Source: Marsupella aquatica (lineage: Eukaryota; Plantae; Marchantiophyta). Taken from it: DNA of 64,000 bases. The stretch spans positions 21,981,867 to 22,045,866 of the forward strand of contig OZ316894.1 of assembly GCA_973895155.1 (NCBI GenBank), read 5' to 3'. The position numbers were made by a program, and so were the translations under genes. Below, in pieces: positions 6,198-62,349 of the stretch; position 1 is the stretch's first letter; every line of letters starts with the position of its first letter. The notes below the pieces were generated by a model. It was given only the letters and a program-made list of their open reading frames with translations, ran no database searches and was not told the origin of the DNA.

Positions 6198-7136
6198 GCA
6201 CCCAAAGAAGAACCCTCACACAACACTCCGAAATTGTATGTTCCAACACTGATACGTATGTATTTGAACGCTTCTCTTCACATCCAAACTATACTTCCAT
6301 TCTATAAATCCGGAGAATGGAAAGTATGTCACAGTGCAAGGGTAATCGAATACATTCACTCAACAGAATTCGTTGGGTGTTTTCGAGGCAAAAAAACAGA
6401 ATTTCCTTATTCTACCAACCTGACACTGACCATAAGCCAATCTGTCCAACACTCACGACAGAATGATGTCATGTCCTATTTCGGTCCAACATTCCCATGT
6501 CAGCCGTCGAAGTTAGAAAGAGCTATGGTAACTGTGCCCTGAAGTGTATGAGTGGAACCGCCTGACAGACGAATTGTTGTCCATCGAGACCGAATGTACG
6601 ATACCAATATAGGACGCAATTACGATCAGAGATTTGGATTTCCGAGACTTTGGGCTATAGTAAACGACCCCATGGTGCAGAATTCGGACGAATCCACGAA
6701 ATGGCAGATTCCACTGTTTTTTTAAATAGATAATGTATCATAATTTGACTTTACGATTCCCAGAACATTATCGACTAACTACGGTGACCGGGATCCGCCA
6801 GCTCTTGAAAATGGATAATGGAGGTTAAAAGGACGCCCAACTTTATCATACTTTTCGAATAAGTTCTCCTTTAATATTGCAGCAGAATAGCAGACTCATG
6901 AGCTGAACCGCCGTCGACAATAGTGATGTCTGCCGTGATGATTTCATCATGACGAAGGCAGCGTGTTCACTGAGCTGCTTCCAGAGAACCTTCGGAAGAA
7001 ATGAATCTAAACCCGTTGAGTTCTTCACTGTTAAACATGGTGTGGAACGAGTAGGAATTGCTGAAGAGAGGAGAGGAGAGGAGAGCTAGGGAGCGGAGTT
7101 GAGCTGAGCTGCGCTGATCTGATCTGAGGAGGAGCA

Positions 7137-13000: not shown

Positions 13001-16000
13001 GTCTGTTCTGACCGTGTATCCAAGGCGCTGGTGGCCTCGTCCAGCAGCAGAACTGCAGGATTCCTCAACATGGCCCGAGCTATGGCTACTCGTTGCTTTT
13101 GTCCCCCTGAGAGCTGGATACCCCTCTCTCCAACCTGTCATGGCCACCCAAATTGCTGTCATCTAGAGACTCGATAATGCATCTTTCTGTAACGTTACAG
13201 GCTCAATCTTACTATCTTCAAACGCTACTCTATGGAAAAAGCCTGTTGAATTATCGTGAACAGCTTATTCTAATTTCGTTTCAATGACAGTTGGGTCTGA
13301 GTTGACTACTAATTCCCATTCCATCCAATCTTCCATCTGTCATTACTTCCAAGAATCCTTCAAGCATCAGTGCGAGACCACTCCCTGCAGTATGGAATGC
13401 GAATTCAATTTTAGGGCACAGGACAAACCTGAGTTTGATAGCCAAAAGGAAGTTTCTCTATGAACGAATGTGCATTGGCAGCTATCGCAGCTTCTTCAAT
13501 CTCTTTCTGGGTAGCAGTATCCTTCCCATACAAAATGTTTGCTGCAATAGTCGTCGCGAAAAGTGCTGGTTCCTGATTTACAAGTCCAATTCGCCCTCGC
13601 AGCCACTTCAGGTCTAGCTTTTTAATGTCATGTCCATCTAGCAAAACCTGGCCTACAAGTAAATTTCAGTCAGAGGTCTCCCTTAGAGTAAGTCTCAGGC
13701 AGAAGGCACCAAAATCCAACATACTGTGATTGAAATTCATCAGACCCTGACAAACATCTCCAACCCAAATACGCATAGGTAGGAATTTACAAACAAATAG
13801 TGGGATTCACTGTTACCTGCAATTGGATCATAGAAACGTTCAATGAGGGACACAACAGTACTCTTTCCAGAACCGCTGCTTCCAACAATGGCGACTGTCC
13901 TTCCTGCGGGGATGACCAAGCTCAAGTTTTTGAACACAAACACATCTGGTCTTGCGGGATATGCGAAGTCCACATTCCGGAGCTCAATATGACCCTCAAC
14001 CTTCTCCAGCGTTTCAGAGTTTTCATTGACCACGTTGATTTTTGAATCATGATCGATCATTTGAAATATCTTGTACGCTGCCGCTTTTCCTTTAGCCAAG
14101 GCAGTGAGATTCGGCAATGCTTGCCCCAAAGCGCTGCATTGACAGTCAAGAGAGTTACAGGGGCCGGAATTCCTTCCTTCTGCGCTAAATGATGTGATCC
14201 TTAAATGAGAACTCTGTACTCGTTCTCGGACTGAAATTAGAAAGTCTCTCGTGACACAGAACAAGTAGTCCTGCTAAATTCAATTTCAAAGCATCGATCA
14301 ACAAGACAATGGATGTTCACTTACTGTCCTGCGAAGACCACAGCGAAGACACTCGTCACCGCTTCACCACCTTTAACAACGCCTTCGCGAACAAGAACAC
14401 CTCCGTACCAGAGGAGGAGTGCAAAACAAGGGTACAGAACTGAATAAGTGCAACCCATTCCGATTCCCTTGGCGAGACCAGCTCTGGCCCCCAACTTCAC
14501 TGTCTTCTCTAGAGATGTAGAATAAGCCTTGATGAATTTCGTTTCGCTCGCAAACGAATAAACCGTCCGCACCTGAGCAATTGCCTGCATTGACAACGAA
14601 ATGAACCATGCCACTTGGAAATGATGATGAAATACAACACAATGTTTGTGACAATGCATTCTAAGAATGTCGCTGACTCTCAGTGGCAGGCTTTGAACTT
14701 TAGAGCAAAAATGACATGGTGGAATCAATCGATGCCTCGACAAGCTATCATGCAAGAAATGTGGCCAAATGTAGCAAAATGTGGCTGGTTGTAGCGTATA
14801 CGAGATTGAGGGCAGTAATTCACTGTCAAACAAGGGCTTCTACTGTGGCAAGTACAGTGAAACGCATACTTGTTCAGCGATTGTTCCCGCTTCGGCGTAC
14901 GCTGTTGCGGCGCTAGCAGTGGTACGGGCCAACGTGTAAGCGTACCCCACCCCAGTCATTGCAAGCAGAGGTACCACGGCAACTGTCACTAGAGCAATGC
15001 GCCATTGTCGGCTGAATCCGACCACAAACCCCGAGAAAAAGTAGCCCATGAAGTGAATGAAATTGCCCAGCTGCATGGAAATCAACACAACCGAAACAAC
15101 AACAGCATGATAGTCGGCTCACCCCGATGAACATTATGACAGCAGCTGCCTTTCACAAACAAAATGATGAACCTCTAGTCCCACAGTTGCAATTGCACGA
15201 CCGTACAGGATGGAAATTCGAGCGGGAAAGTTTCACATGCTAGCGACTGTACCTTTTCGCTGATGGCATCCTGTACGATGAGAGGATCGGCCGCAATGCT
15301 GGACACAAAATCTCCCGTCTTGGTGTCGGTATCAAAGTACGCCACATCTTGTCGAAGCAGAGCTTCGAGGTACTTGGTCCTCATTTTCGCCGACTGCCTT
15401 TCTCCAGTGAGCATCCAAAATGATACCTCTACACGGACGGGAAGCCAGGTTCAACCGAAAGGCAAGGGCAAAGGGGGGACTCTCGTGCACGTCATTGTGT
15501 AAAGGCTCATCTCTCTTACAACAAGTACATTGCGCAAACCTTTGGACAGAGAAAAAGAGAAGGGCAGAAACGATGTAAGTGGAATCTGAATGAGAGTTCG
15601 ATAGAGATCGCACCGATCCATGCGGAGCCAAGAGTTGCAAGCCCCAGGTACAGAAAGTAGAGTGAGTACTGCACGCACGCAGGAATGGTTAGCGATCGTT
15701 ATATTGCCCACTGTAGCAATCTTGAATATTATACATGAAATTAACACTGAGCTGAGCTAGGCTGTAGCCAACTCGAATATATATATATCAAACGATGACT
15801 TGTAGAACTGAGCTGAGCTGATTTTTCACGTAGCACAGCCGTCCACTGTGCTACTGTACTTGGAGCTAAATGATACAAACAGCGATTGGCAATAGCCTTG
15901 GACCATGAACGAACTAATAATCGAGCTGAGCTGATTTTGCACTTAGCACAGCCGTCCACTGTTCCTGGGCCACTGTACTCGGAGCTAAATGATACAAACA

Positions 16001-16637
16001 GCGATTGGCAACAGCCTTGCACCACGAACGATCTAACAATGGCCATTTGTAGTAACAATGGATGAGCTGATTGAAGTCATCATGTGGGTGACAGTCAGCT
16101 CCCGAGAGAGCCGAAGACTTGTATAGTTAGTCAGCTTTCCGAAAGGAGGAAGGCATGCAAGCGACTCATGAAGAAGTACTGTACCTTATCGACAGTATTG
16201 GTTGAGGACCCGATGTTTCCTGCATTCTCCTCTCCAAGCCCATTCAACAGCTTTCCAAAAAAGAGAATGAAGACTGGAATCGCTGAACCGTGCGCAGCGG
16301 CGCCGAGGGTCCCGCAGAACATGAGAAAGTAATCGAACTTGTCCGCAAACGAGAACAACCTAATGAAAGGAATCGACCCCTTGTCACCAGCTTCCTCTTC
16401 GCGCGACTTGACAGCGGCAGCTGAACCAGTTCCGTCGACTCCCTTTTCTGAACCCATCTCTTTCTTCACCATGTTGTGATCATCAACTTTTCCACAACGG
16501 TCGTTGAGATGAGGCCCTTCCCCATTCCACCCATTCTCCGCTGCGTTTGTACTCCCATTCACTCGGACGAAGCCGCCGCCGCCGCCGCTGTCCCCATTGC
16601 TCTTCCTGTTCTTGCGGTCGCCATGCAGCAAAGCCAT
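10011..16637 (-). CDS. ABCB: Full-size ABC transporter subfamily B (MDR/P-glycoprotein), 11 exons, ~1337 aa
   Basis: Exons, all GT-AG and phase-consistent (4014 nt total): 16637-16185, 15668-15614, 15428-15253, 15070-14870, 14584-14325, 14133-13817, 13652-13429, 13134-12737, 12532-12081, 11844-11603, 11246-10011. Architecture is TMD-NBD-TMD-NBD with Walker [10 protein letters not shown] and GASGAGKSS, two LSGGQKQR signatures and two [11 protein letters not shown] motifs. Confidence 0.97.
15808..16040. repeat. Tandem duplication of a ~115-bp unit in ABCB intron 1
   Basis: gagctgagctgatttt...agcacagccgtccactgt...ggagctaaatgatacaaacagcgattggcaa occurs twice in tandem. Confidence 0.8.
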
Positions 16638-19600
16638 CGCTGACGAGAACAGTGCTCGTTCAGTCACGAGTTCTAAGAAACGATTTCACGGTACTTCAAT
16701 GTCGTTACATCACGAGTCTGGAACCGTCCGCCACATTACGAAGACGAGTATGTCGAAGAATTCCTTCGTGCATAGGGCTTCTGATCATCGATGACCAGTG
16801 CGCGTCCGCCAATGTCCCAAACTATAGCAGCCATCGACATAGTTACGCCAAAAGCTCAAGGCATCATTGGTGACAAGAGCTCGAGTCTTTCAGGACATCA
16901 CAGATTTCTAAAGCTGAGGCAGCATTTGTGAAGACTGAGTTGTTGTTGTTGTTGCCGTGACGAAGTGTCGAATGACTGATGCTGTGTTGTTGCTACATTA
17001 CTGTGCGTGGAAGTCACAACGATTCTCTCGTGCGATCGTCGTGATTCACGGTACATGAGTTTCGACCAATGTTGTGACTTGCGAAGGAAATCGAGCAGAA
17101 GCTTTAAATGGGAAATTAAAGCTAACGTGTCAGAAGCAGGTTAAATTAATAATTTAATGAAGGGTATGGGACTGGGCGACAGCCCATTGGTTTTCCTGAG
17201 GGGTGGTGAGCTCATGAAACCTATCCTCTTGGACAGGCAGGCCACTACTCAAACCAGAGTTTTGTTCTCAGCTAATCACACATCAAAATGTGATAATATA
17301 CAATGTGCATTCATTGATTTAAAAAATAATAATGAGGTTTATCATGGGTGGGAGGGATGTCATACGCCGTATATGTTAGACTTCCATCGTGAGGTTGTAT
17401 TTGCTTTGATTCACTCCGAAACCTCAGAGAGGATCCTATGATGTGCGACGTTTTTGAAGAATAAACGCACTAAAACATAAATAAAGGAAGTGCTCTCAAG
17501 CATAATAGGAACTGGTGAGCAAACTACTCACCCCCAAATGTTTCCTATTGCTCACCTGGCAGGCCTGCTGGAGGCTATTATCTACATTGTTAAACAAGGT
17601 TAACACTAGCCTCCATTTGGTCAACAACTATCAATGAGACATCAATGGTAGCAGGGCTCAGTGCAGGAGATACCAACGAGGTACTATGTCCAGGTCTGCA
17701 GTTTAGGATCCAACACTTAAAAAATATATTTTAGTCTAGTAGGGGTCTACAGTTCTTGGAGAAACAATACTCTCTTCACTCCTTGCCCAAAAAGCACCTC
17801 CGGACCAGGCCCTTGGAGGACAATTGTCTAGCCACATAATCTAGTCGACAATAATTTGTTTGATATACCCTGTAAAAGAATCAACTACAGTATATAGTCC
17901 ACAATGTGGCCTTCCACTGAGAAGTTAGACGAGGCCACATTGCAAATGCAATACCTGAAAATAAACTAACTCTCAATCACACTTGTCATTATGTCAATGT
18001 TACATGTGTAAACCCAAACCTATGCACATACTCTATTTGTGGCTAGTAGATAGTTTTTGACAATCACTACTACGCTTTTGTTTCCCTTAATTAGAACATC
18101 TCTATCTGTCTAGGGGCAAATACCTGCTAAACCCAAAATTTAGAAAAACATTTGGAGGCCTGGAAATTACCTACACCCCCATCTTTTGGATTCGGTCACT
18201 AGAGCCCCTGCTCGTGCCCCCTCCCCCTTCTCTGACCTCATCTCCAAAGTGAAGTGATGGCAAACTTTCCCAGTCAGGTCCAAACTTAAGTTTCAAGCAT
18301 GTCTACCATATTGTCATCTTGTGACATGTGGTGGAATCTTTGACTTAGATTGGAATACAGACAAGGATATAGGTACTCTCTCCACGTTACATTCCTAGTA
18401 CCAAATATGGCAGCCAGGGTTGTAAAAGAAGGGGCTCGTTTCCATTTATTTGGTTAGAAATTATAGGGGTCACAATTGGAAAGCCAGCCTTCCAAAACCA
18501 GCTTCTATATGCTCCTCTTACTAGCAGTTGCAAGCTCATTTGACCCCATTGTTGAAGATTCTTTTAGAGGTTAGGCTGCAATGACCCCATGGAGCCAGAT
18601 GGTCTCACAACTGGCCAACCACTTGAATCAATGGAGAAAAACTCCTTACGCATGTCAAGAAGGGGACCCACCTGACCTAGCCTATAAGGACCAAATATTT
18701 GAAATGGTCACAATGGGTTACCAAAACATCAAAGTTTGTACTCGCAATCAAAGCCTCAAAAATGAGGATAAGGATTGTCTCGCTGGGATTCAAACCTCGG
18801 ACCTCCTACTAGTTCAAAGTTGGACTAAAATGCCTTAGACTTTGTACTTATTTGAGAGAAAAATTAGTTACTCATTAAGAACTCACCCTCACCCTTTTCT
18901 CATCCGCCCTCAGTTGAGTTTGTGGCAGGCTTTGGGTTCCCACTAACGAGTTCAACTGAAGTGTGCACTGTCTATTGAGAGTTGTGAATTGGCGCCACAT
19001 CATCATGGCACGCTGCAAACAGGAAGAGATCTGTTTTTGGATAAAATTAACTTCTGTATTCGTGCTTGTGGCAACTTTTTTATGGCTTCAAGCAATCATC
19101 CACAACTATGAAGCTATGGTATAGAAGCTTCACTTTAGACAGTAGCCCTTGAAAGTAGCTTTGCACTGGGCTTTATTAGTAAGATTTATGTATGACATTA
19201 ATAATTGTTTTTTAATCATTTTTTTCATTAGTATTTAAAGGATGGGAATAGGGAATATATTTTGTTAAATTTTATTGTACTCTCCTCATGTTCAAAGAAC
19301 GCATAGTCGGGGCTATTACATAGAATGCGACTTTGGAAGCTACTCAGTCGAGAGTTTTGAAAGGGAGCTTCTCCCCTCAGCATATTGTATCCACCAACAG
19401 TGTCAGCAGTAGCAATATCTGCCCTAAGTGGGCTCAGCCTAGGCTAAGGGCCGAGCTCCAAAAAAGAAGAAGAAAAAAAAAGGGCCGAGCTCCAAGGGCC
19501 AGGCCCAGGGTAGGGATTACAATCACTCCCTTTGACACCCCTTGGGCCCAAACGGGGGCCCAAATACACTTTCTCCATCATGGTGTCTCTTTGGTTTAGT

Positions 19601-34919: not shown

Positions 34920-37151
34920 TCAGTGCAGCGGGATGCTTTGATTGAAATTGAAAACATTCTTACTGTCCCACTTATTCTTGGTAGCTATGAGGGCGTTGAG
35001 GTTGTTGGCATAGTAGGCACTGAGCGGTTCTTCCACATCAATGTAGTTCTGATAAGCTTCAGATGAGGAATATGGACGCACAGCACTCCAGATTCCCTCC
35101 ACAAAAGTGGTTTCGGTAAGTGCGTTTTGAGGCTGGTTCTGCCAATAGGCAAACATCTGGATGTTGAAGAGAGCGTCTCGGTGGACCCAGCCGTCTCCAG
35201 GCTGGAGAGCAATCTTGTTAATAGCAGAGCCTGAACCTCCGAACAGATCGAAGATGAAGTAGCTATTGGATGGACCACTTTTGAGTTTGTTGACGAATGC
35301 ATTTATGCCGGCATCAGAGTACCCAGAACCTTTCGCGATGATTGACTTCGATTTGAACACGCGCTCGTCGTACACGTAGCCGTTCCCAAGGTTCAGCAAG
35401 GAGGGGTTGTCGGTAATTTTAAATCCACCGTTGATGAGAGCCGAGTGAATGTAATCTGTTTGAACAATGTAAGTGCTGGTCGGAGTCGGCGCGTTGTTCA
35501 AGTAAGTTTGGACCTGGTTGTGAAGATTTGACTGAGGGCCTAGATATAACCCGTAAAACTGGTTTCCACCAGAAGGGTCTTGATATAAAGACGCTGATAT
35601 TTCGGCAGGGGCATTCAGTCCCCAAGTCTGGTAAGCTTTGATGGCTTGGAACTGGGCATCTTTGCTGAAATGGTACTCAAAGTAGGTCACGGGTTGCGAC
35701 ACATCGTAAGCTTGGAACTTGAACTGTGTGACGATCCCTGCAAATACACGCAAGGAGCTAGACATAAACGATTGCTTACATGACTGTGACGTACTACACC
35801 CTGGAAGTGGTAATTCCTATATTTTCATGTGAAGTCTGAAGTTTCTAGGTCCTGAGCGGAAAATCATAAGATGAATTGGGAGATGAAGAAGAGCGTGAAT
35901 TTGAAAAGACTTCGCAGTCTGTTATATAATTGAGTCAATCTAGCAAAACCAGCCCGATACAAATAGACAAGAATTCGAAAATGGATCTAGAGAAGACCGA
36001 CAATGCTAACTATCCTGCCGCGCCGGCACTCGTAGGACAGGTCCCAAAGAATAGAGCAACTTACCGAAGGAGTTGGCACCTGCCCCTTTCAATGCCCTGA
36101 ATAAGTCAGAATTTTGACCAGCAGTAGCCGTAACCACAGAGCCATCGTTAATAACAACTTGAATTGCTTGGATGCTGTCAGCCATGATTCCGAACTTTCT
36201 CGAAACAAAACCCCATCCGCCACCCAGTGCGTGACCGCCGACGCCTACGCTGGGACATGTACCGCAGGGAATGGTTACTTTCCCGGCATTCCATAATGCT
36301 AGCTTCAAGGGTCCCAATCGATACCCTGCTCCCACTATGGCAGTCCTAGCCTGACTGTTATAAGTGAAGGTGGTCAGACCAGCCAGATCCACCACGAGCA
36401 CACCATCTCGGCCACCTGCATATATCGATCCACAACTCGATCATTAATTTAGCACCGCCAAAAGCCTTTCATATGTACAAAGTACATGCTCCCGTTTCAA
36501 ACAAGAGAACCCGAAAGAGTAGAGACTTGTGAGTAGTCACGTACCTAGACTGTAGTCCTCGTAGGAATGCCCACCACTGCGGGGAGAGATCCCAATGTTC
36601 AACTGGACAGCGCATTTCACCGCATTCTGTACTTGGGCAAGTGAGGTCGCGAAAACGATCGCTGCTGGCTTGTACAAATTCCGATGATTCCACACTTTGC
36701 CTCGTGCAGTTTCATAAGCTGAGCTACCAGGAAAGACAACATTCGCACCAGCTGGGCTGAGGCAGCTCTGAATCTGACTAGCTGTCGCAAGCTCCCGACG
36801 TGGCTGTTTGAAAGCCTGACATCCAGACGCAGGCAAATGTCATGTTAATAACTTAAATCATGATCGACAAATTCTTGACAAGGAGTCTTGGGAGATGAAA
36901 GCTTGGAAGTGTGATTCTAGCGATATGCACAATACGCAGCACCAGTCTTGGGAGATAAAAACTTGTAAGTGTGATTCCAGCATTAGACACAATTATACTC
37001 AGCACCAGGACAAGTCCTCGTATTCTATTCCATCACTAACCCCTAAGGCTGATCTTGCGTCAGCGCTCGTTTCGTAAAGAGAGCTTAGAAGCAGAAGGCC
37101 TATCAGACAAACTGCCTGCACGCCCCGCATGGATCCTACTGCTTTCTTCAT
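34920..37151 (-). CDS. Secreted berberine-bridge-enzyme-like / AA7-type FAD-linked (carbohydrate) oxidase, 4 exons, ~516 aa
   Basis: Exons 37151-37041 (signal-peptide-like MKKAVGSMRGVQAVCLIGLLLLSSLYETSA), 36815-36545, 36415-36065 and 35737-34920 are GT-AG and in phase (1551 nt). Motifs: RSGGHSYE (FAD-linking His), GTCPSVGVGGHALGGGWG (FAD-linking Cys), GAGANSFGIVT, and the BBE C-terminus YQNYID...YY..N...L...K.KWD..NVF...QSIP. Confidence 0.93.
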
Positions 37152-40100: not shown

Positions 40101-42751
40101 CGGCTCTTCGTGTGCTTTTGGGGTGCTCAGATGCCGCTTGGGTTAGGGTCTTTCCGTCCTGGCGATAGTCGCCTCCGGCAGCCTGCATTCGGGCTCAAAA
40201 AAGATTTGGAACTTCTTCGCTGTTGCAGTCGCTCTTTTCCTCTGCCTAGCTGCGCGTAGAAATTCATGGTGAGTACTTTGAGTCAAAGCTCAAATGAATG
40301 AGAAGAAGAGATAATACACAGATGTCGTTGCATTTCCCATGTGGACAAGTGCAAAAAGACATATCCGTGTTCAAAGCAACAAAATTGAAGCCGAGGGAGT
40401 TTTGCCACTTTGGAAGTCTGTGGATCGATCACAGCTTGGATCATGTATGACCACAGTGTATCGCCCTTCTAGATCTGTGTCTGGATCCACAGCCAGTAAG
40501 CTTCCTTCCACGATTGCCATAGTTGTATTGCTTAATATATCCGACGTACTTCGATCGATGGAGTACATACTAACAGGAAAAATGGACGACAGTGGATCGT
40601 TGTCGCGATCGAACCTGTCCACGGGTACTTCCCTCAATTCGATCGTCGTGGTTTATGGTACACCAGTTTCAATTCGATGCCAAAGTTGACATCATATTGC
40701 TCTTAATTAGTATCCCTATATATGTAAGTGTGTTTGTTTTAGCAGGCCTAGCGTTTATCGTGTAGGTCTAGGAATGGGAGACAATTATTCAGAATGCAAC
40801 AAAGAAAGCTGGTCGAGTGAATTGTAGAGTCCCCCAATTTTCCGTTTCACCATATGTATTCCTTATATTGGAGGAGAGAGTTCAAACTCGAGCTACAAAG
40901 ATCATATCATGTGCACGCTAGTTGAGAACTAATTCATCTAATTGGGTTATGCTCAGGTGTAAAGAATGTCGTCATTCTATATATCTAGCTTCAACGACAT
41001 ACAACCCGCTGAAATTATAAGATAGCCCTGCTGGGCGTCACCTAAGTAAGTTAAACAAGGTCTGTCCTGTTGTCCTTCACTGGCAAATAATAGACCGTGA
41101 GCGCGCCGCCGATGAGCTCAGCCGTCCACAGACTAGATATCTCCTAAAGCAGGAGCACCTAGCTAGTACAGGACAGCTCATTGCTGATTCTTCCGAATTG
41201 TGTGCCCCTCGGAGCTTTTTCTCCGGGGAGCTGATCCGCACAGAACGGAAGAAGTTGGGAATTAATTCCAAGGAATTCTTAGCCTAAGGCAACTCACAAT
41301 ATTCATCTGCCAACAATAAGGTATCAACCGCATCTTTACACTCCGTGCAATGATCTGGTGAGATATGAAGTCTGGAACTCAAGACTGGCAGGGAACGGAC
41401 TGATTAGTTACCGGCGTTCAGATCAAAGTTATACTACTGATTTGGAAAGAGAATTTTATCTTCTTAATTTACATGCAAGTAACGTTCAGAGGATTACTTG
41501 GATAGGGGACACTTCGGACTCACCTCAGGGCAGGCCAAAGCTAGGGCCAAAGTACTCGCAATTGCACCCTCTCAATAAATCAAGCATTGGAAACACATCA
41601 GAAACAAGGTAGAATAACTAATCAGGATTCGCTATAACATTAGGGGAATCAAAGTTCAGGAAATCAAAACAACGATTGTAGCTCAAGATCAATGGAACGT
41701 ATTTGCCATTGTATTTACATATCTTACATGACGTCTGGCGCAAATCAATACCATCTATGTAGTCTGCAGGCTGTAGGCGTGCTGCATATTGCCTGACATA
41801 ATTTATCCTTTATAACATAATTTCAAAGACCTTTCTCACCCCAAGTCGGAAAAGCTGTTTCGGTTGTTTGTACGTGGGCTCGAATTGAAGGAAGCTGTCG
41901 ATTTAGTTTACGTGAAATAAAGTTACGAATAGACATTGATGATCAGATGGTTGCCGATGTACAGTAGGCAGGGGAAAGGATGGGAACATCCCTATCTTAT
42001 AAATTTCATGTTCCAATTTTTCATTATTAAGTTCAGATTAAAGTGAAACTAACGAGCAAAAGGTTGGATGATTTTCGCTCTGACATAAGTCGTTGTACCT
42101 ACTGATCTGCTGACTGTTGGACCGAAGTGGGTCCATGGGCTGATCATAACTCCTTTCATTTAAATCTGCCAACTGTGGGACGAAGTTGGTCTAATGGCCT
42201 AATCTCTACTGACGCATCACGCATGTTACCAAAACCCCATGCACGACAGCAATCGACACCCAAGAATCATACAGCTTCAACAGTGCTCTCAAAATCAGTG
42301 TACACCACTTACTTTTCGGAAGGTCAACAGTGCCTGAACGTACCATCTTCAATCTTGGCGCTCACCGAGTCGATCATGGCCAAGAATCATGCAGCTCCAA
42401 TAGTGGGCGACTTTTGCTGTAGTCTCTCGTGCTTTTTGGCACTTCGGACTCCCTGGGTTTTCCTTTTGTTGCCCACGGGTCTCTGCCTGTGGAATCGTGT
42501 CGCCTGGGATTATGATATATATACGTACCTAAGAGTCAGGCTGGTGTACTCCACTTACTTTTCGGAAACTTTTGCAGTACGTTGCGACCGTACTATCTTC
42601 GATCTTGGCCCTCACAGAGTCGAGCATCGCATTTTTCAGACATGCTGAACCTCTTGACGAATTCCTCGTGAGCCTTATCCACTGTTTGCCCTACTTGGCC
42701 CGCCTTGCGCCACTGAACTTATTTGCAGAACCCTAAACCCCCTCCACTTTG

Positions 42752-43450
42752 TGTTGGAACTCTCAATTACATGGATCAGCTAGGAATTGAACCTAGGATA
42801 GGAATTGAACCTAGGAGTGTACATCTTAGTGCTCTACAACTGAGAGTGCTCTACCACTGAGCTATAGGCCCTTTGTGGCTGCATCCATCATTGTTCGAGT
42901 GTGGTTCATTTCCAACACCCTCCCTTGAGCCCCACTCCCTACAAGGGAAACTCATCATGGATCTTTGGCTATGATACTATGCATGTTAGAACTCTCAGCA
43001 ACATGGACCGGCTAGGAGTTGAACATAGGACTTCCAACACCCTCCCTTGAGCCCCACTCCCTACAAGGGAAACTCATCATGGATCTTTGGCTATGATACT
43101 ATGCATGTTAGAACTCTCAGCAACATGGACCGGCTAGGAGTTGAACATAGGACCTCCCGCGTACATTGTAGTGCTCTATCACTGAGCTACAGGCCTTTTG
43201 TGGCTGCATCCATCATTGTTTGAGTGTGGTTCATTTCCAACACCCTCCCTTGAGCCGCACTTGTTACAAGGGAAACTCCTAGTCTTTGGCTTTGATACCA
43301 TGTTGGAACTCTCAACAACATGAACCGGCTAGGAATTGAACCTAGGACCTCCCGTGTACATTGTAATGCTCTACCACTGAACTACAGGCCCTTCTTGGCT
43401 GTATCCATTGTTGTTCGAGTGTGGTTTTCAAGTGTGGTTCATTTCCAACA
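42752..43450 (-). mobile_element. Tandem-array TRIM (non-autonomous LTR retroelement) with tRNA-like sequence in its LTRs (Helenus/TRIMp3-like)
   Basis: LTRs lie at 42752-42917, 42984-43039 (internally deleted), 43106-43242 and 43301-43450, with TGTTGGAA...TTCCAACA-type ends. On the minus strand the ~58-66 bp spacers begin with a PBS (best copy TGGTATCAAAGCC, tRNA-iMet type) and end with the PPT CTCAAGGGAGGG. Confidence 0.9.
43321..43391 (-). ncRNA. tRNA-like Pol III cassette inside a TRIM LTR (not a functional tRNA gene)
   Basis: Sequence GGGCCTGTAGTTCAGTGGTAGAGC...AGGTCCTAGGTTCAATTCCTAGCCGGTTCA has A and B boxes. The D-stem, the T-stem (CTAGG/CCTAG) and most of the acceptor stem pair, but the anticodon arm does not. 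Further copies occur in the other LTRs. Confidence 0.8.
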
Positions 43451-43559
43451 TGATTGTCTTCCTTTTCTAATCCTGTACTGATCCGATAGTAATCTCACAA
43501 CAAGGTCAGCAATGGTTTAGTTTGGTTTAGTCCAAGGCACTTCTGTCTCAAGTGGCATA

Positions 43560-43810
43560 CTCCATTACAAGTCAATATCAATAGGGCATCTAAAACCTTG
43601 GAGTTGCTGGGAAAAATGATGAACCATCAGTTTCGGTCACGTGCGGTTCAGTAGTGTGTGGACACGGATTTTAGTGTCAGCCACTTGTCAGCCATGGATT
43701 TTGGTGTCAGCCGTCAGACACTAAAATCCATTGCTGATTCCATTGCTGATTGCTACTGGAGGCAGCAATGCAACATTTGAGACACCCTAATGGCTTCATT
43801 ATTGTAATAT
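43560..43810. mobile_element. Foldback/MITE-like element
   Basis: Degenerate ~50-bp terminal inverted repeats (cattacaa...taggg...gttgctg / cagcaatg...ccctaa...ttgtaat). Internal hairpin atggattttggtgtc-N8-gacactaaaatccat. Confidence 0.5.
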
Positions 43811-46235
43811 GTCTGGAAATAATCTCAATGGGAGGTGAGTGGGCCTGTTATATGGACAAATATAGGGTCAGTGGACAACTTTTGAGCCTCCAGTGCACCC
43901 AACAATGGGCAAGCCGCCAATGAGCTGAGCTTTCCACAGATTCAACTGATTCTCTTCTAGGAGTAACTAGAGGAGCTAGAGGAGCTAGAGGAGAAACAGA
44001 GTCGAGGGGGGACAGATTCTCATTCTCTCCATCCACATACTCTAGACTCTCTACAGGCTTCACTCTATTGTATGAGTCTAGACCACTCTGTTTGCAAATT
44101 AATAGTAAGATGGTCTGGTACTATATGGACTTAAGTACTCGGACATAGGCAGGGAACGGACTACTCTCGTTCAGATCAGGGCCCTACTGAATTTGGAAGC
44201 GAGCCTTATCTTCGTTCCATGCTAATAATTTTCAGACGTTTACACGGATAGGGGACACTCTAGAACGACCAGTCTCACCTGACAGGCCAAAGTACTTGCA
44301 AATGCATTCGGTCAATAAATAAAGCATTGAAAACCCATAAGAAACAATACTGAAGGTAGAATAACTAATCAGGGTTCGCGACCAACTTCAGGGGTAACTG
44401 AACAAAAGCGCGCCAGGCATTATCAATCGAGAGTTTGGAGTATCATTTACTGACAATCCACGCGGCTAGGAGGGAAGGAATTCTTTATGTGATTTGCCTT
44501 CGACTTGGATTGAAAAAACCGGGATGAGGGGCAAAGAGTGGGACCAAATCCGCAGCCCACATATTTTTCTGTGCTCCAAATTTCAATCTACGCAGCTCAA
44601 GATTGTTGCTCAGGAGAGCAAAAGGACGATTGTTGCTCAAGATCAACATATAGAACGCAGTTCCTTTCTTTTGTGGTATTGAATACATAGAACGCAGTTC
44701 TTTTCGTTTGTGGTATTGCAAATATCTTCTATCGTGCGTCCTCTGGCGAAATCGATATCATCTATGTGGTCAGGTTGCATATTGAGCAATTGTTCCAATT
44801 GCAATACAGTATTGACATTTCTTCTTTATAACATAGTTTCAATGACTTTTCTCAGCCCATATCGGGAACGACGTTTTTTTTGTTCAAGGAAGCTGCCAAT
44901 TCAGTTTATGTGAAATAGAGTTGCAAGTACGCATTAATGATCAAATGGTACAGTAGGCAGGGGGAAAGGATGGAAATATCCCTATCTTACAAATTTCATG
45001 CTACAATATTTCATTTTTCAGTTTGCAAATAATGAGTTATATATGTCAGAGTAAAGAGAAACAATCGAGCAAAAGGTTGGGTGATTTCTCTATGACATAA
45101 CTCGTTCTACCTACTGATCTGCTGACTGTTGAACCGAAGTGGGTCCATGGCCTGATCGTAACTCCTTTCTTGTAATCGGCCAACAGTTGGAGCCAGGTTG
45201 CTCGTTGTCCTTATCTGTACTGACCAAAACCCCATGCACGACAGGAATCGAAAGGCAAGAATCATGCAGGTCCAATACGCCTGTAAGAATAAGGCGTACT
45301 TCACTTCCTTTTCGGAACTTTAACAGTGAGCTCATGTACCATCTTCAATCTTAGGGCTCACAGAATTGATCATGGCATTTTGCAGGCAGCCTGAACCTAT
45401 GAGCCCCATTCACTGTTTGCCAAGTATCTCCCGTCGTGGGCCCTTCTTGGAACTGCTCTTGAGACACTTATTTGCCGAACGGGATGGTGTTCCGGCCACC
45501 TCCGCTTTGATTGTCTTTCTTTTTCAGTCCTGTACTGATCGATAGTTATCACACAACGGTTAAATTTGGTGTACTCCGAGGCAATTAGTACCATGAACCA
45601 CGCGGTCCTGTTTCTCGGATACTGGGAGTATCTCAGTAGGCCCTTAGGAGTAATCTTTGACAGACTTATAGATTTATTTGGATGACTTTTGGGTCTCTGT
45701 TGAAGCTCAAAGTTTTTCGGCATGTTCTTGAATGTCCAATCTATTGACTTACAAAATTGAGAACCTTTTTAAGGTCTCTTGCTCTGTTTCCTCCGATTAC
45801 AAAGATGATCAAATATTATCAATATATGAGGACTTCAATAAACACTTGAAATCTGATAGAAGTGAACATACGGGTCAACTGAAACCCGGGTAGCAAGTCT
45901 TTGTCTGCCATTTACAGGTTGTTTTCCAGTACAAGATGTAAACAATACTATCAGGGCAGTTTCAGACATTTTAGTAGTCCACGGCGATTTTGTCAGTCAA
46001 TGAGGGCATCATGGATAACGGGCCAGTCCTTCCTGGCGTTACCTTCTCCATCTAACCCTTCGCTTTCACGGGAAAGTCTAGTACTTAGTAGAAAGTCTCT
46101 ACATAGATAGTACGTCGGCAAATTTTAGCATTTGGGATGCAATCGCTTGGGCCAGACGTGGAAGATTCTTCAGACATCCCTAAATTTGACATAAGCTTTT
46201 TCTACTCACACAATACACCATATATCTCAATTGTC

Positions 46236-47717: not shown

Positions 47718-50700
47718 TTATGTGTCATTTCCTCCAGAAGTTTTCATTGTGTCCGACAGAGTTGCGAGAGTCGACATTAGGACTCTCGTTACGTGACGCA
47801 CATGGCTTTGATCGAGAGTCCGACCGTTGCTTTTCGCCAGGACTTGCGCAGTGCGGATCGAATTTCTTATTTCGCGTCCGTTCAAATCCTCAGCAGCCAG
47901 CTCAGAGACAAATTCAGCTGTGACGCCTGCGACTCCGGCTCGTTCGAGAAGCGTCATCCAGATTTGCTCTTTCTGCTGAATGGTGAGTTTGGGGTACCGT
48001 AGGAACATGGAAATCCGCGAACGGAAGGCGTTGTCAAAAGTTCCGATGCGGTTGGTGGTTAGGAACAACACACCCCGGTAATACTCCAGAAAGCGGAGAA
48101 AGGTTCCTGTCATTTGATTTTGCGCCATACCCGTTGAAGCTCGCTTCTGTAGGAACACATCCGCTTCATCGAGCAAGAGAACTGCTCGCCAAGTTGCTGC
48201 GATGCCTAGAACCTCCACTAAAGTCTTCTCAAAGTTACTGGGAGTCCCTCCTAGCTCGGAGGCGCTGAGAGACCACAGTGGGCGATGCATGCTCTCGGCA
48301 ACGGACTCGGCTGTCAACGTCTTACCTACAGGAGGAGAGTCATTTGCCAATTGCAAAGGGATTTCAGCGGAAAGTATTAAAATTTACGAAGTAGCTCCGA
48401 AGTTATGCCTTGACGTAAATGATCATTGGACTACTCTCCATTAAAATCACCTTGGACTCAAATATTGTAATCCAGAGAGAACCACTCACTGTTTACGAGG
48501 AGAAAACATCTGGATTCAACAACGAAAACATAATGCCTGCGGATTGCCAGGTTCAGCACAACACAAAGTTCCGCAAACGAACGAGACGATAGTTCCAAGA
48601 CAACAAAATCCAGAGAATATATATACCTGTCCCTGGGGGCCCGTAGCACAGGAAGATGCATCCTTCACCCTTCCGTGAAATGGGATCGACTAGCTGGAGC
48701 GCTTGCGATGGATCCACCGGTGTCGCAATGTACTGGCTTACCAACTGGTACACCAATTGCTTCGAGTCGGGTTCCATCACCAAGGCGTCGAAGGCATTCG
48801 AGTTGAAGCTGATTTCGCTGAAGCCACTGATGGCAAAGGATCCCCATCGTTTCAGGGCAAAAGAGAAACCGTACACTATAGCAGGCGCAAAAATGAGAGT
48901 CTCATCTGTTATCGCTACTGAACTGGGAGGTGCCAAATCGAGGATTCCTTCACTCTCTTCAAAACGCCTTCTCCGAGGTCCATCGGAAGTATCAGCAGGT
49001 GGGCGGAAAGTGCCGACCGGCGGCTTCGCATTCCCCATTTTATACCCCGGATTCATTTTCGCGAAACTGGCAAGATCAATCATCACCCTTCCGTCGGCAT
49101 TTTCCTTCATAATTTCCGCGCCGCTGTCCATCGATTTCATCATCTGGAACATGGGTCCCGAGTAGTGCATGAAGCGATGGCTGTTTTTCATGGCAAGCTC
49201 GTAAAATCGCTTGCCATTGGCTAAGAGGCCCTCATTCACAACTTCTGGCACGCCTTCAATCTCAGTAGGACGGACAGCCAAACTAGAAAATGCAACCTCA
49301 CCATCGAACTCTGGAATCGTTCTTTGAATCTGGCACTTGCGATAGCTCCTTCCGTCGTAGTCCCAAACGTCCAGGTCCACTACGAAGGCCCATTCCTTCC
49401 GCACGGTGGTGTAGCTGTTTTTAGAAACTACCGCTGCCAGAGTCTCTCGCGTGTGAATACAGGTGTAGACCAGTTTCTTGCCAGGAGTGAGGAATGTCCA
49501 CAGCATGTCCCAGGCAACACGCTTCTCTTCAGTCATTCGCCGCAGTCGGACAGATACATCGTTGTACTCCTTGTCCATGAACCGAATCAAGTGCTTTAAG
49601 TGAAGTCCTCCCTTATCGTCACCCTTGTCCTCCTGAGGATTCTCAATCGAATTATCAGCGCTGCTGGCGGTCCTTTCGTGATTCTTGAGATCATCAAGGA
49701 CAATGAAAAGATCTCTTCCGTCGACCTTTGGGGCGGCCAGGCTTTGGAGATCACCATTTTGGGAAAGATATTTTTGCACAATTTTGATGAGAGGGGCTGA
49801 AATGAGATCCACTTGCACCATGTCTGGCCAGAGTTGTTGTTTCCTTCGACGGTACATGACTTGGAATGGACTAGCATTATTGCAGACTCTTTGAGAACAT
49901 TTCCTCAGAAGGATTTTTCCATTCTTGCCCTCGTAATGATCAAAAGCAGGCCATTCCCAATCTGGATCATCCACTGACTTTACATCAGCAGACCCCTCGC
50001 TTGAGTTAAGGGAAGCAGGGTCGGAAGGCGGGAATCGAGAACGCACTCCTGAGGATGTAGGCAGTGGGGGCTTCACGGGTGATTGGGGACCTGGAGGCCC
50101 GCGTTGCACAGCGCTTGAGAAAAACTTCAACTGAGGTCCCTTAAAACTCTTAAATCCATAGTAAACTAGTAGCAGAGCTTGACCATATCCTCTAATAATA
50201 GTTTCAACATAATACTTGACGAACTCCACGAACCTACACCAGTAACAGAGAACCACACATAAGTACAAATCATCACTGAGAGAAAACAATGTCCTTTACC
50301 AAACGCATGTTGGATCCATTACCGAAAATTAGAACCGCATTTCTCACCCTGACTTCAACACGTTGGCATAAGTCCGTTCCCAATAATAGAATTCGTATGA
50401 CCCATGAAGCTGTATGTGTACAACATTTGTAATGCAATGATCTTGGGTTTTCAAGGATGTGCTATTCAGAGACCCGTATGTTCCGGCGCTGGAAGCAATG
50501 TTAACACAAAGAGATTGGGCTTTGTTAATGTACAATCTACAAACCTGTTGGGTGCGTTTGAAGAAAATATGAATATCCATAACACAAACGAAAACCCATT
50601 TGGATCCAACGCCGCTGACAGTGGGACCAGGACTTCCTGAGGAAGCACAACAGGCCACATGCGTAGAAATCCTCTCGTATTGTAGATAAGGAATATCCAA

Positions 50701-59399: not shown

Positions 59400-60090
59400 T
59401 GACTCCGCAGCCTACAAATGGACAAAACCATTTTTACCTTTGTATACATGGTGGACATATATTGTATTCCAAGGTTACACTTAAACAAAGTTATGACTCC
59501 CCTGCCTTACATTCAGGCACCAAGGCCTGCTCTAATGGACAAAACCAAATAATGTTGAGCATATGTGTAGCTTGTATACAATATGCACCTTATATTCAGA
59601 TTTCACACTTAGAAAAATATCCTCCACTCCAACTTTACAAGGACGCCCCCCCCCCCCGGGTCGAAGCTTGCCCAAATGCCCGCCCAAATGGACAAAACCT
59701 ACCGTATTCAACTTACATAGAAGTATGATTTGTGATGTATACACTTTGCACGTTGTATTCAGATTTCACACTTAGAAAAAATTCCAGTCCCTCCAACTCC
59801 CGCTCCGACTTCCACTCCGACTTTATAACAATGCCCCCAACCAAAGCCTGCCCAAATGGACAAAACCTATTGTACTCAACATAAAAGTATGATTTGTGAT
59901 GTATACTCTTTGCACATTGTACTCATATTTCACATTTGGAAAAAAAATCATTAATTCCCTCTGACTTTACAAAGACGCCCCCCTGAAGCCTGCCCAAATG
60001 GACAAAACCTACAAATGAATATTCAACATAAAAGTATGATTTGTCATATATACACGTTGCACATTGTATTCAGATTTCACACTTATAATT
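59400..60090. repeat. Degenerate tandem array (~120-170-bp unit, about 5 copies) in the MULE subterminal region
   Basis: aatggacaaaacc recurs at ~59417, 59534, 59687, 59855 and 59997, with agtatgatttgt and atttcaca blocks. Confidence 0.8.
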
Positions 60091-60538: not shown

Positions 60539-60989
60539 GGGGTTAAGGAGAACATTGTTTTTATCTTTGGTCATACTTAGTCTTAAAGTTAGGAATCAAA
60601 CTAAAGTACTTTGATTGTCCTTCTCTCTGTAATTTTCTTTTATCGTTTATTGAAGTTGTTGGCTCATTGCACATCCATTTGTTTACTAGTATGCACCTTA
60701 TATAGAAATCAAGTTTTTCTTCTTTTCAGCTAAAAAAACTTCATATTTTCCTATGTTGACTCTAAGCCCATTGAATTGTTTACATTTTAACTCATGATTG
60801 AGCAGAATATTTAAAGTAATACTTTGTTTTTTAGTTCAAGATTGAATAATTCAGCCAAGTAAATGGCACTACTGTAGGTAACTTCATTCCATCCCCGGTT
60901 TGACCTTGCCCGTCAAACTGGGCGTTTGAGAGCGGCAAATTGACAACCCGGCACCCGGGTTCGGAAGCAGTCCGGGAAAGGAAACGTCC

Positions 60990-61425
60990 GGTTCGGGGTT
61001 CGGGTTCGGGAGGAGGTTCGGGAGGAGGTTCGGGTGGGGGTCCGGGTGACTAATCGGGTCCGGGTCCGGGGCGGAGGCGCTCGGTGGGGGCTCGGGGTGG
61101 GGTCCGGGTGGGGTTCGGGTCCGCTCGGTGGGGGTTCAGGGTGGGGTCCGGGTGCGGCTCGGGTCCGGGAGGAGGAGGTGCGGGGGGTTCGGGTGGGGTT
61201 CCGGGTGGGGTTCGGGTCCGGGTCCGAGGGGTTCGGGTTCGGGAGGTACGGGGGGTTCAGGTGGGGTCCGGGCCCGGGGCGGAGGCGCTCGGTGGGGGTT
61301 CGGGGCGGGGTCCGGGTGGGGTTCGGGTCTGGGAGGCCGGGGTGGGTCCGGGTGGGGATCGGGGTTCGGGGTCCGGTTCGGGGTTCGGGGTCCGGTTCGG
61401 GGTTTGGAAGTTCGGGGTTCGGGAT
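60990..61425. repeat. G-rich GGGTTC/GGGTCC-type minisatellite
   Basis: Dozens of gggttc/gggtcc/gggtgg units. A longer block, ccggggcggaggcgctcggtggggg, occurs twice. Confidence 0.9.
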
Positions 61426-61556
61426 TGAGGCTCGAAGAATTAGGGTTTCACGATTTAGGGTTGGAGGATGGGGCCGGCCGGGAAAGGGTCGGGGGCTCGG
61501 GAGAGGATAAAAGGAGGAGATCCCTCCTCTCCCTCCTCATTTTTGGTTTTGCAGAA

Positions 61557-61656
61557 AGGAGGAGAGGAGGAGAGGAGGAAGAGGAGGAGGAGAGGAGAGG
61601 AGAGGAGGAGGAGGAGGAGAGGAGGAGGAGGAGGAAGAGAAGAGGAGGAGGAGGAG
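61557..61656. repeat. (GAG/GAGAG)n purine microsatellite ending at a GTAAGT splice donor (probably the 5' UTR exon of the kinase)
   Basis: A pure purine tract is followed by gag|gtaagt. A candidate acceptor ttttcag|gttgg lies at ~62258. Confidence 0.75.
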
Positions 61657-62349
61657 GTAAGTGTTTGGTTTTGGTTTTTATTTTTGATTTTTGGTTTGTT
61701 TTTATTTGTTTGTGTTTTGTTTTGTGATTTTTTAAGTTTTTTTTGTGTTTTAAACCTTAACCTTAGAGCCAAATGGAGGGATATAAAGAAACACTTGTAC
61801 GCGCACGCTTTGAGCCTCGGTTCGGTTTGCGATACTCCATACAAGAATTTCTTAATATCACCTTAACAATTTAGTCTCCTTTGTTCATTAAGTAAAACAT
61901 TTGCGGAGATAGAGGAATCCATGTACGCATGCTTAGAGTTTCGGCTCGGTCTGCGATACTTTGCATGGATACCACGATTCGCCGAGAATGTTTTTACTTG
62001 AAATACAAATGAGTGTTAAGTTATAGACACCAAATCACATATGTCGAAGCAGGAATATAACAACTTTGAAAGAAAAGAACACTTTTGTGCGCATGCTTTG
62101 AGCGTCCACTCGGTCTGCGATATTTCACAAGTGTTGTCTTTCTCTTTTATTGTTGTTATATAGAAAGGTAATTAAAATCATGTGTGCAATAAAAATACAT
62201 AATGCATGGGAGAAATAAACCGGGAAAAGATAATAACAATACGACTTGTAATTTTCAGGTTGGTCGTTGAATCCTTATTGGAAGGATTTTATTTAAATCC
62301 CGGTAAGATCTTGTTCCTCCCTCACATATTCCTTTTGTGAAGGGAAAAC

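What the first reader, a model, noticed from the sequence alone, without database searches (positions are those of the whole stretch)
42752..43450. Tandem TRIM array whose LTRs each carry a tRNA-shaped Pol III promoter cassette
Seen: four short LTRs (137-166 bp, one deleted to 56 bp) alternate with ~60-bp spacers that hold little more than a tRNA-iMet-type PBS and a PPT. Each full LTR contains, in element sense, a ~71-nt tRNA-like sequence with A/B boxes and paired D, T and acceptor stems but a scrambled anticodon arm. The sense strand has no TTTT Pol III terminator anywhere in the 700 bp. Known: Cassandra TRIMs carry 5S sequence in their LTRs, and tRNA-bearing TRIMs have been described as Helenus/TRIMp3. 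Inference: this is a ~330-bp minimal retroelement transcribed by Pol III with read-through of PBS, PPT and the next LTR, and mobilised in trans. It may be a new family in this lineage and a source of tRNA-mimic RNAs.
Basis: partly seen in the sequence, partly recalled or inferred. Interest (0 to 1): 0.82.

Follow-up and report, generated by a model that had tools for sequence, protein, structure and literature searches.

The report
Liverwort mini-retrotransposon with tRNA-like ends
This is a decayed three-repeat stack of a 332-base, gene-less jumping element with many scattered copies, from what is likely a leafy liverwort; each end repeat holds a tRNA look-alike that likely works as its RNA polymerase III promoter, a design described in 2024 (Helenus) and reported then from only one other plant.

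Summary
The array is real, on the minus strand: TG…CA LTRs with 8-bp terminal inverted repeats, a tRNA-like cassette (ARAGORN, Rfam 37.6 bits), iMet-type PBS and PPT; unit 332 bp. Corrections: there are three true LTRs (each pair about 11.5% apart); the 56-bp 'LTR' comes from a young, identical 122-bp local duplication; lack of TTTT is what chance gives. It is a transposed element: 195-471 contigs per run map, with many different flanks at the exact LTR end; another run keeps the 5-bp target duplication CTTTG that the window allele lost in part; a paralogous segment in the window shows the empty site. Three further coded organisms carry diverged subfamilies in which the tRNA-like part is best kept. 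Host is likely a leafy liverwort. It meets every testable Helenus (TRIMp3) feature; the only plant Helenus in that paper is from Selaginella. Pol III transcription and the helper are untested. New lead: the 58-nt inside is predicted to pair with the T arm and with the LTR start. The scan reported this family before on another piece of this genome (e1-10634709). New member of a known kind.

The parts
42747..42751 (+). Left copy of the 5-bp target site duplication, CTTTG
   Evidence: right copy complete in run X4; single copy at the paralogous empty site 45505-45509
43451..43452 (+). Remnant (TG) of the right target duplication; the window allele lacks its first 3 bases
   Evidence: X4 contig joins the LTR end to 43451 with the missing letters between, depth 79.1, 47 letters on the short side (tables 5, 5c)
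43301..43450 (-). LTR1 (5' LTR), 137-bp core plus a 13-bp local duplication; TGTTGGAA...TTCCAACA ends
43321..43391 (-). tRNA-like cassette of LTR1: A box about 43373-43384, B box about 43331-43341, 16-nt unpaired anticodon arm, G3-U wobble and A discriminator
43287..43300 (-). Primer-binding site, iMet 3'-end type (motif recalled), abutting the LTR; the family majority at 43292 is the canonical base
   Evidence: table 3 (X1 2061 of 2891 depth), table 3
43274..43282 (-). Internal segment complementary to the T-arm 3' strand (43329-43337): predicted helix D
43251..43263 (-). Segment before the PPT complementary to the LTR start (43221-43233): helix B; majority alleles in other copies restore pairs
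43243..43250 (-). Polypurine tract abutting LTR2
   Evidence: sequence
43106..43242 (-). LTR2 (middle LTR), 137 bp; tRNA-like part 43126-43196 with changed A and B boxes
42910..43153 (.). Young 122-bp tandem duplication (two identical copies) that creates the 56-bp partial LTR (42984-43039) and the extra spacer
   Evidence: an X3 contig covers 43002-43153 with no difference (table 8)
42918..42983 (-). Second internal segment (66 bp, damaged PBS, two 4-bp insertions, PPT); identical to 43040-43105
42752..42917 (-). LTR4 (3' LTR), 166 bp: 137-bp core with 17- and 18-bp duplications and a 6-bp deletion
45505..45509 (+). Empty paralogous target site in an older segmental duplicate (one CTTTG, flanks homologous on both sides)

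Best explanation
This is a decayed three-LTR tandem copy of a 332-bp non-coding LTR retrotransposon of the Helenus type, from what is likely a leafy liverwort, whose tRNA-like LTR cassette likely serves as an internal RNA polymerase III promoter and whose RNA is likely copied and inserted by the enzymes of an unidentified autonomous element. Shown: LTR-PBS-PPT-LTR anatomy, insertion into a once-empty site with a 5-bp target duplication, many dispersed copies, related subfamilies in three more organisms, and best conservation in the tRNA-like part and around the PPT/LTR start. Inferred: TFIIIC binds the A and B boxes; Pol III starts near LTR position 47 (43391), runs through PBS, inside and PPT into the next LTR and, with no T run in the element, stops in flanking DNA (first TTTT 457 nt past the array); tRNA-iMet primes, strong-stop DNA jumps to the second tRNA-like copy, a helper integrase (Copia somewhat more likely than a chromovirus Gypsy) inserts it. 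Inferred for this locus: the three LTRs came in together or were multiplied right after insertion, then decayed neutrally. Predicted only: the inside segment pairs with the T arm, which would keep the genomic RNA from folding as a tRNA and from being cut by tRNA-processing nucleases.
For: Anatomy. Dispersal: 471, 295, 195 and 454 contigs laid in 4 of 4 runs; 23, 21, 7 and 21 contigs break off exactly at the LTR end 43301 with unrelated continuations (agreement 0.38-0.47). Depth over single-copy flank, rough only: 53-72 for the inside, 144-369 for LTR positions. Target duplication and empty site. Organisms C, D, G: 261, 81 and 51 contigs; in X9 depth 25,147 on the B-box region and 8,663 at the LTR start against about 80-90 in mid-inside; variable sites at 12% or more: 5 of 71 in the tRNA-like part against 27 of 78 in U5 plus inside (Fisher p 4e-5; p 0.046 if all 9 hidden rows fell in the tRNA part); none listed in the B box. 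Star-like LTR divergence: 8, 8 and 7 private changes, 19 of 23 transitions. Definition of Helenus and its single plant member (PMC10886601). Helix D: T-stem pairing 0.83-0.86 in the LTR-only RNA falls to 0.00-0.03 when the inside is included, helix D 0.67-0.97 in its core.
Against: No transcript, start site or Pol III occupancy was seen; no helper was found (none in the window; no genome held). Inside this array the boxes decayed as fast as the rest (3 of 23 against 20 of 108 sites, p 0.76). Cross-organism conservation is read through an 80% mapping filter on collapsed contigs, and true tRNA genes or SINEs could add depth to the cassette. Whole-element fold is no more stable than shuffles (z 0.66). 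Helix D drops to about 0.26 in the 286-nt RNA, is lost in the second spacer, some family variants break its outer pairs (43281, 43279, 43282), and its shuffle test is weak and post hoc (413 of 20,000). Helix B has near-zero probability in both window junctions because two local hairpins out-compete it. The host rests on one protein search.
Confidence: 0.75

Rival explanations
1. It is a TRIM transcribed by Pol II (from its own U3 or from neighbours); the tRNA-like piece, left by an old SINE insertion, is kept for another reason such as TFIIIC-based insulation or open chromatin, or as an RNA signal for packaging.
For: No Pol III data exist for any Helenus (PMC10886601 discussion). By eye, many described Helenus LTRs, Selaginella's included, carry a T4 run right after the cassette, which would stop Pol III before the PBS. 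The stems, not only the boxes, are kept across organisms.
Against: U3 is only 46 nt and its middle is the least conserved part across organisms; no T run lies in this family's sense strand and no allele creating one is listed in U5; the unit length fits Pol III limits and the Cassandra precedent.
Confidence: 0.17
2. The cassette is kept because it yields a functional or regulatory tRNA-like RNA (alanine-type acceptor, G3-U wobble) of use to the host or the element.
For: G3-U pair and A discriminator in 3 of 3 full LTRs, no variant listed at those places in four runs (9 rows hidden), same pair by eye in Helenus-1_SMo. That this pair is the alanine identity element is recalled, not tested.
Against: Anticodon arm is 16 nt and unpaired; one acceptor pair is mismatched in all copies; the cloverleaf is not the favoured fold; nearest phage tRNAs are of mixed types (Thr, Met, Val, Asn, Arg), none Ala among the 25 rows listed of 84 records.
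Confidence: 0.06
3. A local tandem repeat or a cluster of decayed tRNA genes, not a mobile element.
For: The window is full of small two-copy duplications (39 TRF rows) and holds no second copy of the element.
Against: Target duplication, empty paralogous site, many flanks at the exact LTR end, PBS and PPT.
Confidence: 0.02

Closest known systems
Helenus-1_SMo, Selaginella moellendorffii (Kojima 2024, PMC10886601; LTR 120, inside 85, 5-bp TSD)
   Same: Size (325 against 332 bp), TGTT.GAA start and TTCCAACA end, iMet-type PBS abutting the LTR, 5-bp TSD, tRNA-like cassette with the same A-box run and a G3-U pair, pre-PPT segment complementary to the LTR start (by-eye comparison with the printed supplement).
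   Different: Not the same family: U3, U5, anticodon arm and inside differ throughout; the T stem differs by swapped pairs; SMo has a T4 run in U5, this family has none; host is likely a liverwort. Homology versus independent origin was not tested by alignment.
Helenus/TRIMp3 of rust and agaric fungi (e.g. Helenus-1_AmAr) and of otophysan fish (LTR-11_DR group)
   Same: Same architecture; tandem arrays noted for LTR-11_DR; copy numbers of tens to thousands with more LTRs than insides. By eye the pre-PPT/LTR-start complementarity is in 9 of 9 fungal and 12 of 12 LTR-11_DR-group pairs seen.
   Different: Other primers (anticodon-loop priming in most fungi; His and others in animals), 4-bp TSD in animals; no shared sequence outside the tRNA-like part.
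Cassandra TRIM (Kalendar 2020, PMC7215508; passages)
   Same: Pol III-type cassette in the LTR, tandem arrays, read-through transcripts, template switching or recombination proposed for arrays.
   Different: Cassandra carries 5S, not tRNA, sequence, with terminators; 565-860 bp; vascular plants.
Tandem-array TRIMs, L3I2 (Gao 2016, PMC4717578; passages)
   Same: Three LTRs, two insides, one TSD; the commonest array form (63 of 93 in maize).
   Different: No small-RNA cassette reported; that survey found no TRIMs in Physcomitrella and the word liverwort does not occur in its text.

Membership tests
Helenus (TRIMp3) | Two or more LTRs with TG...CA ends around a short non-coding inside, unit under about 1.3 kb | tested here: met
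   137 + 58 + 137 = 332 bp
Helenus (TRIMp3) | PBS after the 5' LTR and PPT before the 3' LTR | tested here: met
   family majority restores the canonical PBS base; iMet motif recalled
Helenus (TRIMp3) | tRNA-like sequence in the LTR with box A (TRGCY, YGG) and box B (GGTTC) | tested here: met
   motifs from PMC10886601 section 3.5
Helenus (TRIMp3) | 5-bp target site duplication (plant and fungal members) | tested here: met
   complete in X4, single at the paralogous empty site; 3 bases missing in the window allele
Helenus (TRIMp3) | Dispersed multi-copy family | tested here: met
   tables 1, 2, 7
Helenus (TRIMp3) | Solo LTRs outnumbering insides | tested here: inconclusive
   depth ratio LTR to inside 2-5; summed contig depth is no copy count
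Helenus (TRIMp3) | Cassette not a functional tRNA | tested here: met
   16-nt unpaired anticodon arm, acceptor mismatch; no bench test
Helenus (TRIMp3) | Transcription by RNA polymerase III from the cassette | not testable with these tools
   only contigs were available; also unvalidated for described Helenus
Helenus (TRIMp3) | Mobilisation by an autonomous Copia (fungal, plant) element | not testable with these tools
   no whole genome held; no second PBS motif or retroelement ORF seen in the window
Helenus-1_SMo family | High identity over LTR and inside | tested here: not met
   by-eye comparison with the printed supplement: likeness confined to ends, cassette and PBS
Cassandra / Ajax | 5S rRNA sequence in the LTR | tested here: not met
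   Rfam scan of 42000-44200 gave tRNA only, no 5S
tRNA-derived SINE | tRNA head at the element's 5' end, simple-repeat tail, no LTR, PBS or PPT | tested here: not met
   cassette lies inside a TG...CA LTR; copies end at the LTR boundary
Tandem-array TRIM (L3I2) | Three LTRs and two insides within one TSD | tested here: met
   definition from PMC4717578

The most novel reading that the evidence does not exclude
Land-plant Helenus is one old lineage shared by liverworts and lycophytes, older than Cassandra, and its tiny inside is not a spacer but an RNA structure module: one stretch opens the T arm so that the tRNA-shaped promoter is a tRNA only as DNA and the genomic RNA escapes RNase P/Z, and a second stretch pairs with the LTR start to present the PPT/attachment junction in a loop, a helix seen by eye in fungal, lycophyte, fish and liverwort Helenus with unrelated sequences and not mentioned in the defining paper. 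This would be a general rule for how Pol III-driven LTR elements solve the tRNA-processing problem.
Probability: 0.22. Interest if true: 0.7.

Novelty: new member of a known kind. Interest (0 to 1): 0.42.

Why it matters
Helenus was known from one plant species, and its Pol III promoter has never been tested. A family of 332 bp with dozens to hundreds of copies in several related organisms, likely liverworts, gives a second plant lineage, a way to ask whether plant Helenus has one ancient origin, and a very small element for a direct promoter and trans-mobilisation test. It will also inflate tRNA gene counts in these genomes (ARAGORN calls one copy tRNA-Tyr). The predicted helices give a concrete hypothesis for how a tRNA-shaped genomic RNA avoids being processed. 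The tandem form itself is ordinary.

Tried and rejected
Pattern scans: metagenome contigs gave 1 match, L001, which lies in prokaryote-like coding sequence with no LTR repeat and was rejected as chance; genome and viral contigs gave 0. Exact look-up of the ALMT frame: not in the collection. Absence of TTTT as evidence: rejected. Box conservation inside the array: none. Parent tRNA type by BLAST against phages and plasmids: mixed, undecided. Helix B as the favoured fold of the window copies: not supported. The helix D rows were out of register; one search gives the right ones. Middle LTR as a chimera of the outer two (late unequal crossover): no sign, private changes are spread evenly. Self-priming by the cassette: not needed, the PBS is of an ordinary type; not tested further. 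Earlier-findings search by sequence found nothing. Literature searches for a liverwort or bryophyte tRNA-bearing TRIM or for the hairpins found none; that library holds only Creative Commons PMC papers and bioRxiv, and Repbase and Dfam could not be searched, so a deposited liverwort family may exist.

Full report
Observation. On the minus strand the stretch reads LTR1 (43301-43450), 58-bp spacer, LTR2 (43106-43242), 66-bp spacer, a 56-bp piece, an identical 66-bp spacer, LTR4 (42752-42917). LTRs start TGTTGGAA and end TTCCAACA (TTCTAACA in LTR2 and the 56-bp piece). ARAGORN calls 43321-43391 a tRNA; Rfam scores the three cassettes 37.6, 32.1 and 25.9 bits against a gathering score of 29 and finds no 5S. 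The 56-bp piece is not an independently deleted LTR: 42910-43031 and 43032-43153 are identical over 122 bp, with a short microhomology at the joint, whereas the three full LTRs differ by 11.5-11.7%. An X3 contig covers 43002-43153 without a difference and X1, X2 and X3 contigs match the flanks into the outer LTRs (table 8), so the array is no assembly artefact; X2 or X1 may be the window's own source and are not independent support. The lack of TTTT is real but expected by chance.

It is an inserted element. The window's flanks do not match (CTTTG left, TGATT right). But a contig of run X4 (depth 79.1) continues from the LTR end with the three missing letters into 43451, which gives CTTTG on both sides (table 5c; tables 5, 5c, 47 letters on the short side). 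Independently, 41387-43501 has an older duplicate at 44148-45557 (69-86% alike in pieces), which reads straight through one CTTTG at 45505-45509 with both flanks homologous: the empty site. Whether the X4 allele is a solo LTR, a single element or an array could not be told.

It is a dispersed family. In 4 of 4 runs laid first, 471, 295, 195 (57% of the run read) and 454 contigs map at 80% or more; 23, 21, 7 and 21 contigs leave the sequence exactly at the LTR end 43301 with unrelated continuations. Summed depth over single-copy flank depth is 72 and 53 for an inside position and 144-369 for LTR positions in X1 and X2; the tool warns this is no copy number, so I read it as dozens to hundreds. 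Majority alleles undo private damage of the window copy: the PBS base at 43292, acceptor pair at 43323, A-box base at 43381. Three runs of other coded organisms (C, D, G; 3 of the 13 lower-share rows were laid besides X4) hold 261, 81 and 51 contigs with their own fixed alleles, so they are diverged subfamilies rather than carry-over. In them cover is concentrated on the cassette and on the PPT/LTR start, and in X9 falls about 100-fold in mid-inside and mid-U3. Sites varying at 12% or more: 5 of 71 in the cassette (three are reversions of window-private changes, two lie in the anticodon arm) against 27 of 78 in U5 plus inside; 9 rows were not shown. Limits: 80% filter, collapsed contigs, possible depth from real tRNA genes. 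Inside the array itself the boxes decayed like the rest, as expected of a dead copy.

Host. The ALMT frame at 7137-8783 is 70% identical to a Calypogeia fissa protein, 50% to Marchantia and Riccia, 47% to Sphagnum (13 hits at E 1e-50 or less): likely a leafy liverwort. One protein only.

How it likely works. Shown: anatomy, insertion, dispersal, conservation pattern. Inferred from Cassandra and from general LTR biology: A/B boxes recruit TFIIIC; Pol III starts near LTR position 47; RNA runs through U5, PBS, inside, PPT, U3 and the next cassette; the first sense-strand TTTT lies 457 nt past the array; the repeated cassette-plus-U5 serves as the R region for strand transfer; tRNA-iMet primes (motif recalled); a helper provides Gag, RT and integrase. 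iMet priming and 5-bp TSDs fit Copia, as proposed for fungal Helenus, but also chromovirus Gypsy (recalled), so the helper is open. The three LTRs carry 8, 8 and 7 private changes, 19 of 23 transitions, 13 G>A or C>T, with no chimera pattern; with one TSD around all, the array most simply came in as a three-LTR cDNA (read-through or template switch, as discussed for Cassandra in PMC7215508, passages) or was doubled soon after. Later local duplications (4, 4, 13, 17, 18, 122 bp) and a 3-bp loss in the TSD followed.

Structure leads. (a) Helix D: 43274-43282 of the inside is complementary to the T-arm 3' strand. In folds of RNA starting at 43391, T-stem pairing is 0.83-0.86 up to the LTR end, 0.00-0.03 once the inside is present, while helix D's core reaches 0.97 (149 nt) and 0.70 (195 nt), but only 0.26 in the 286-nt RNA. 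Loose-end consensus letters for X9 (5 contigs, agreement 0.77), X13 and X16 (1 contig each) keep a 7-8-nt complementary core with different letters, and keep the TTCCCTTG arm that pairs with the PPT start (table 7, read by eye). Against: second spacer lacks it, some variants break outer pairs, shuffle support 413 of 20,000 after choosing the region. (b) Helix B: 43251-43263 against 43221-43233. The window junctions pair at 9 and 10 of 13 places (shuffles 794 and 74 of 20,000); majority alleles at 43257 (62% X4, 99% X9, 100% X13, 38% X16), 43262 (64%, 75%, 74%) and 43254 (94% X9) each restore a pair. In the printed Helenus supplement the same complementarity, with unrelated letters, is visible by eye in 9 of 9 fungal pairs (one bulged), the Selaginella pair and 12 of 12 LTR-11_DR-group fish pairs, and not in 12 bivalve, 2 coelacanth, 2 sturgeon/paddlefish and 1 ctenophore pairs; I saw about 40 of roughly 230 families. 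The paper's main text has no 'hairpin'. Against: ViennaRNA gives it near-zero probability in both decayed window junctions. (c) All three cassettes have a G3-U wobble and A discriminator, as does Selaginella's by eye; its meaning as alanine identity is recalled, and BLAST did not point to one parent type.

Comparison with what is known. Kojima 2024 (PMC10886601; read parts 1-4 and 6 of 6 of the text, term searches, supplement hits and part 5 of 11) defines Helenus as TRIMs with a tRNA-like LTR sequence, PBS, PPT, 5-bp TSD in fungi and plants, 311-1263 bp, states that Selaginella moellendorffii is the only plant with a characterised family, notes tandem arrays for LTR-11_DR, and says the Pol III promoter is not validated. 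Every testable feature is met here; the element is not the Selaginella family. Three-LTR arrays are the commonest TRIM array (PMC4717578, passages; PMC13570524, passages). Searches for a liverwort or bryophyte case found none (listings only), nor for the hairpins (listings only); Repbase, Dfam, subscription papers and bioRxiv supplements were out of reach. An earlier unreviewed note of this scan reached the same reading for a 332-bp copy on another piece of this genome; I formed my reading before seeing it and did not check that locus.

Verdict. New member of a known kind, extending Helenus to what is likely a liverwort group, with two testable RNA-structure leads. Interest 0.42.

Noticed in passing
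window 41387-43501 and 44148-45557: Old direct segmental duplication (69-86% alike in pieces), apparently non-coding; the second copy holds the empty insertion site.
   Followed up: partly
window 43583-43848: About 266 bp skipped by one contig each in X1 (depth 41) and X4 (79); raised depth at 43542-43703 and a 21-nt inverted repeat at 43688-43737: probably a second small, polymorphic repeat insertion.
   Followed up: no
window 47718-50295 (-): AAA ATPase gene with DUF7025 and a weak match to the fungal AAA lid family: possible fungal-type gene in a plant genome.
   Followed up: partly
window 34920-36440 (-): FAD_binding_4 plus BBE (berberine-bridge-like) oxidoreductase pieces.
   Followed up: partly
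window 7128-8783 (+) and 10011-16685 (-): Aluminium-activated malate transporter next to exons that read like an ABCB transporter (label from recall).
   Followed up: partly
whole window: Many short two-copy tandem duplications (39 TRF rows), six of them inside the 700-bp array; X4 has another 3-bp insertion at 43483. The lineage may favour small tandem duplications.
   Followed up: no
window 2958-4412 (+): 484-aa open frame with repeated GLARTGSG-like motifs near its end and no Pfam match.
   Followed up: no
window 59519-60088 and 60900-61700: Diverged tandem repeat of about 160 bp, and a G-rich low-complexity tract.
   Followed up: no
Supplement of PMC10886601: By eye many fungal, bivalve and the Selaginella Helenus LTRs have a T4 or longer run just after the tRNA-like part, while the fish LTR-11_DR group and this family have none; how the former make full-length RNA by Pol III is unexplained.
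   Followed up: no
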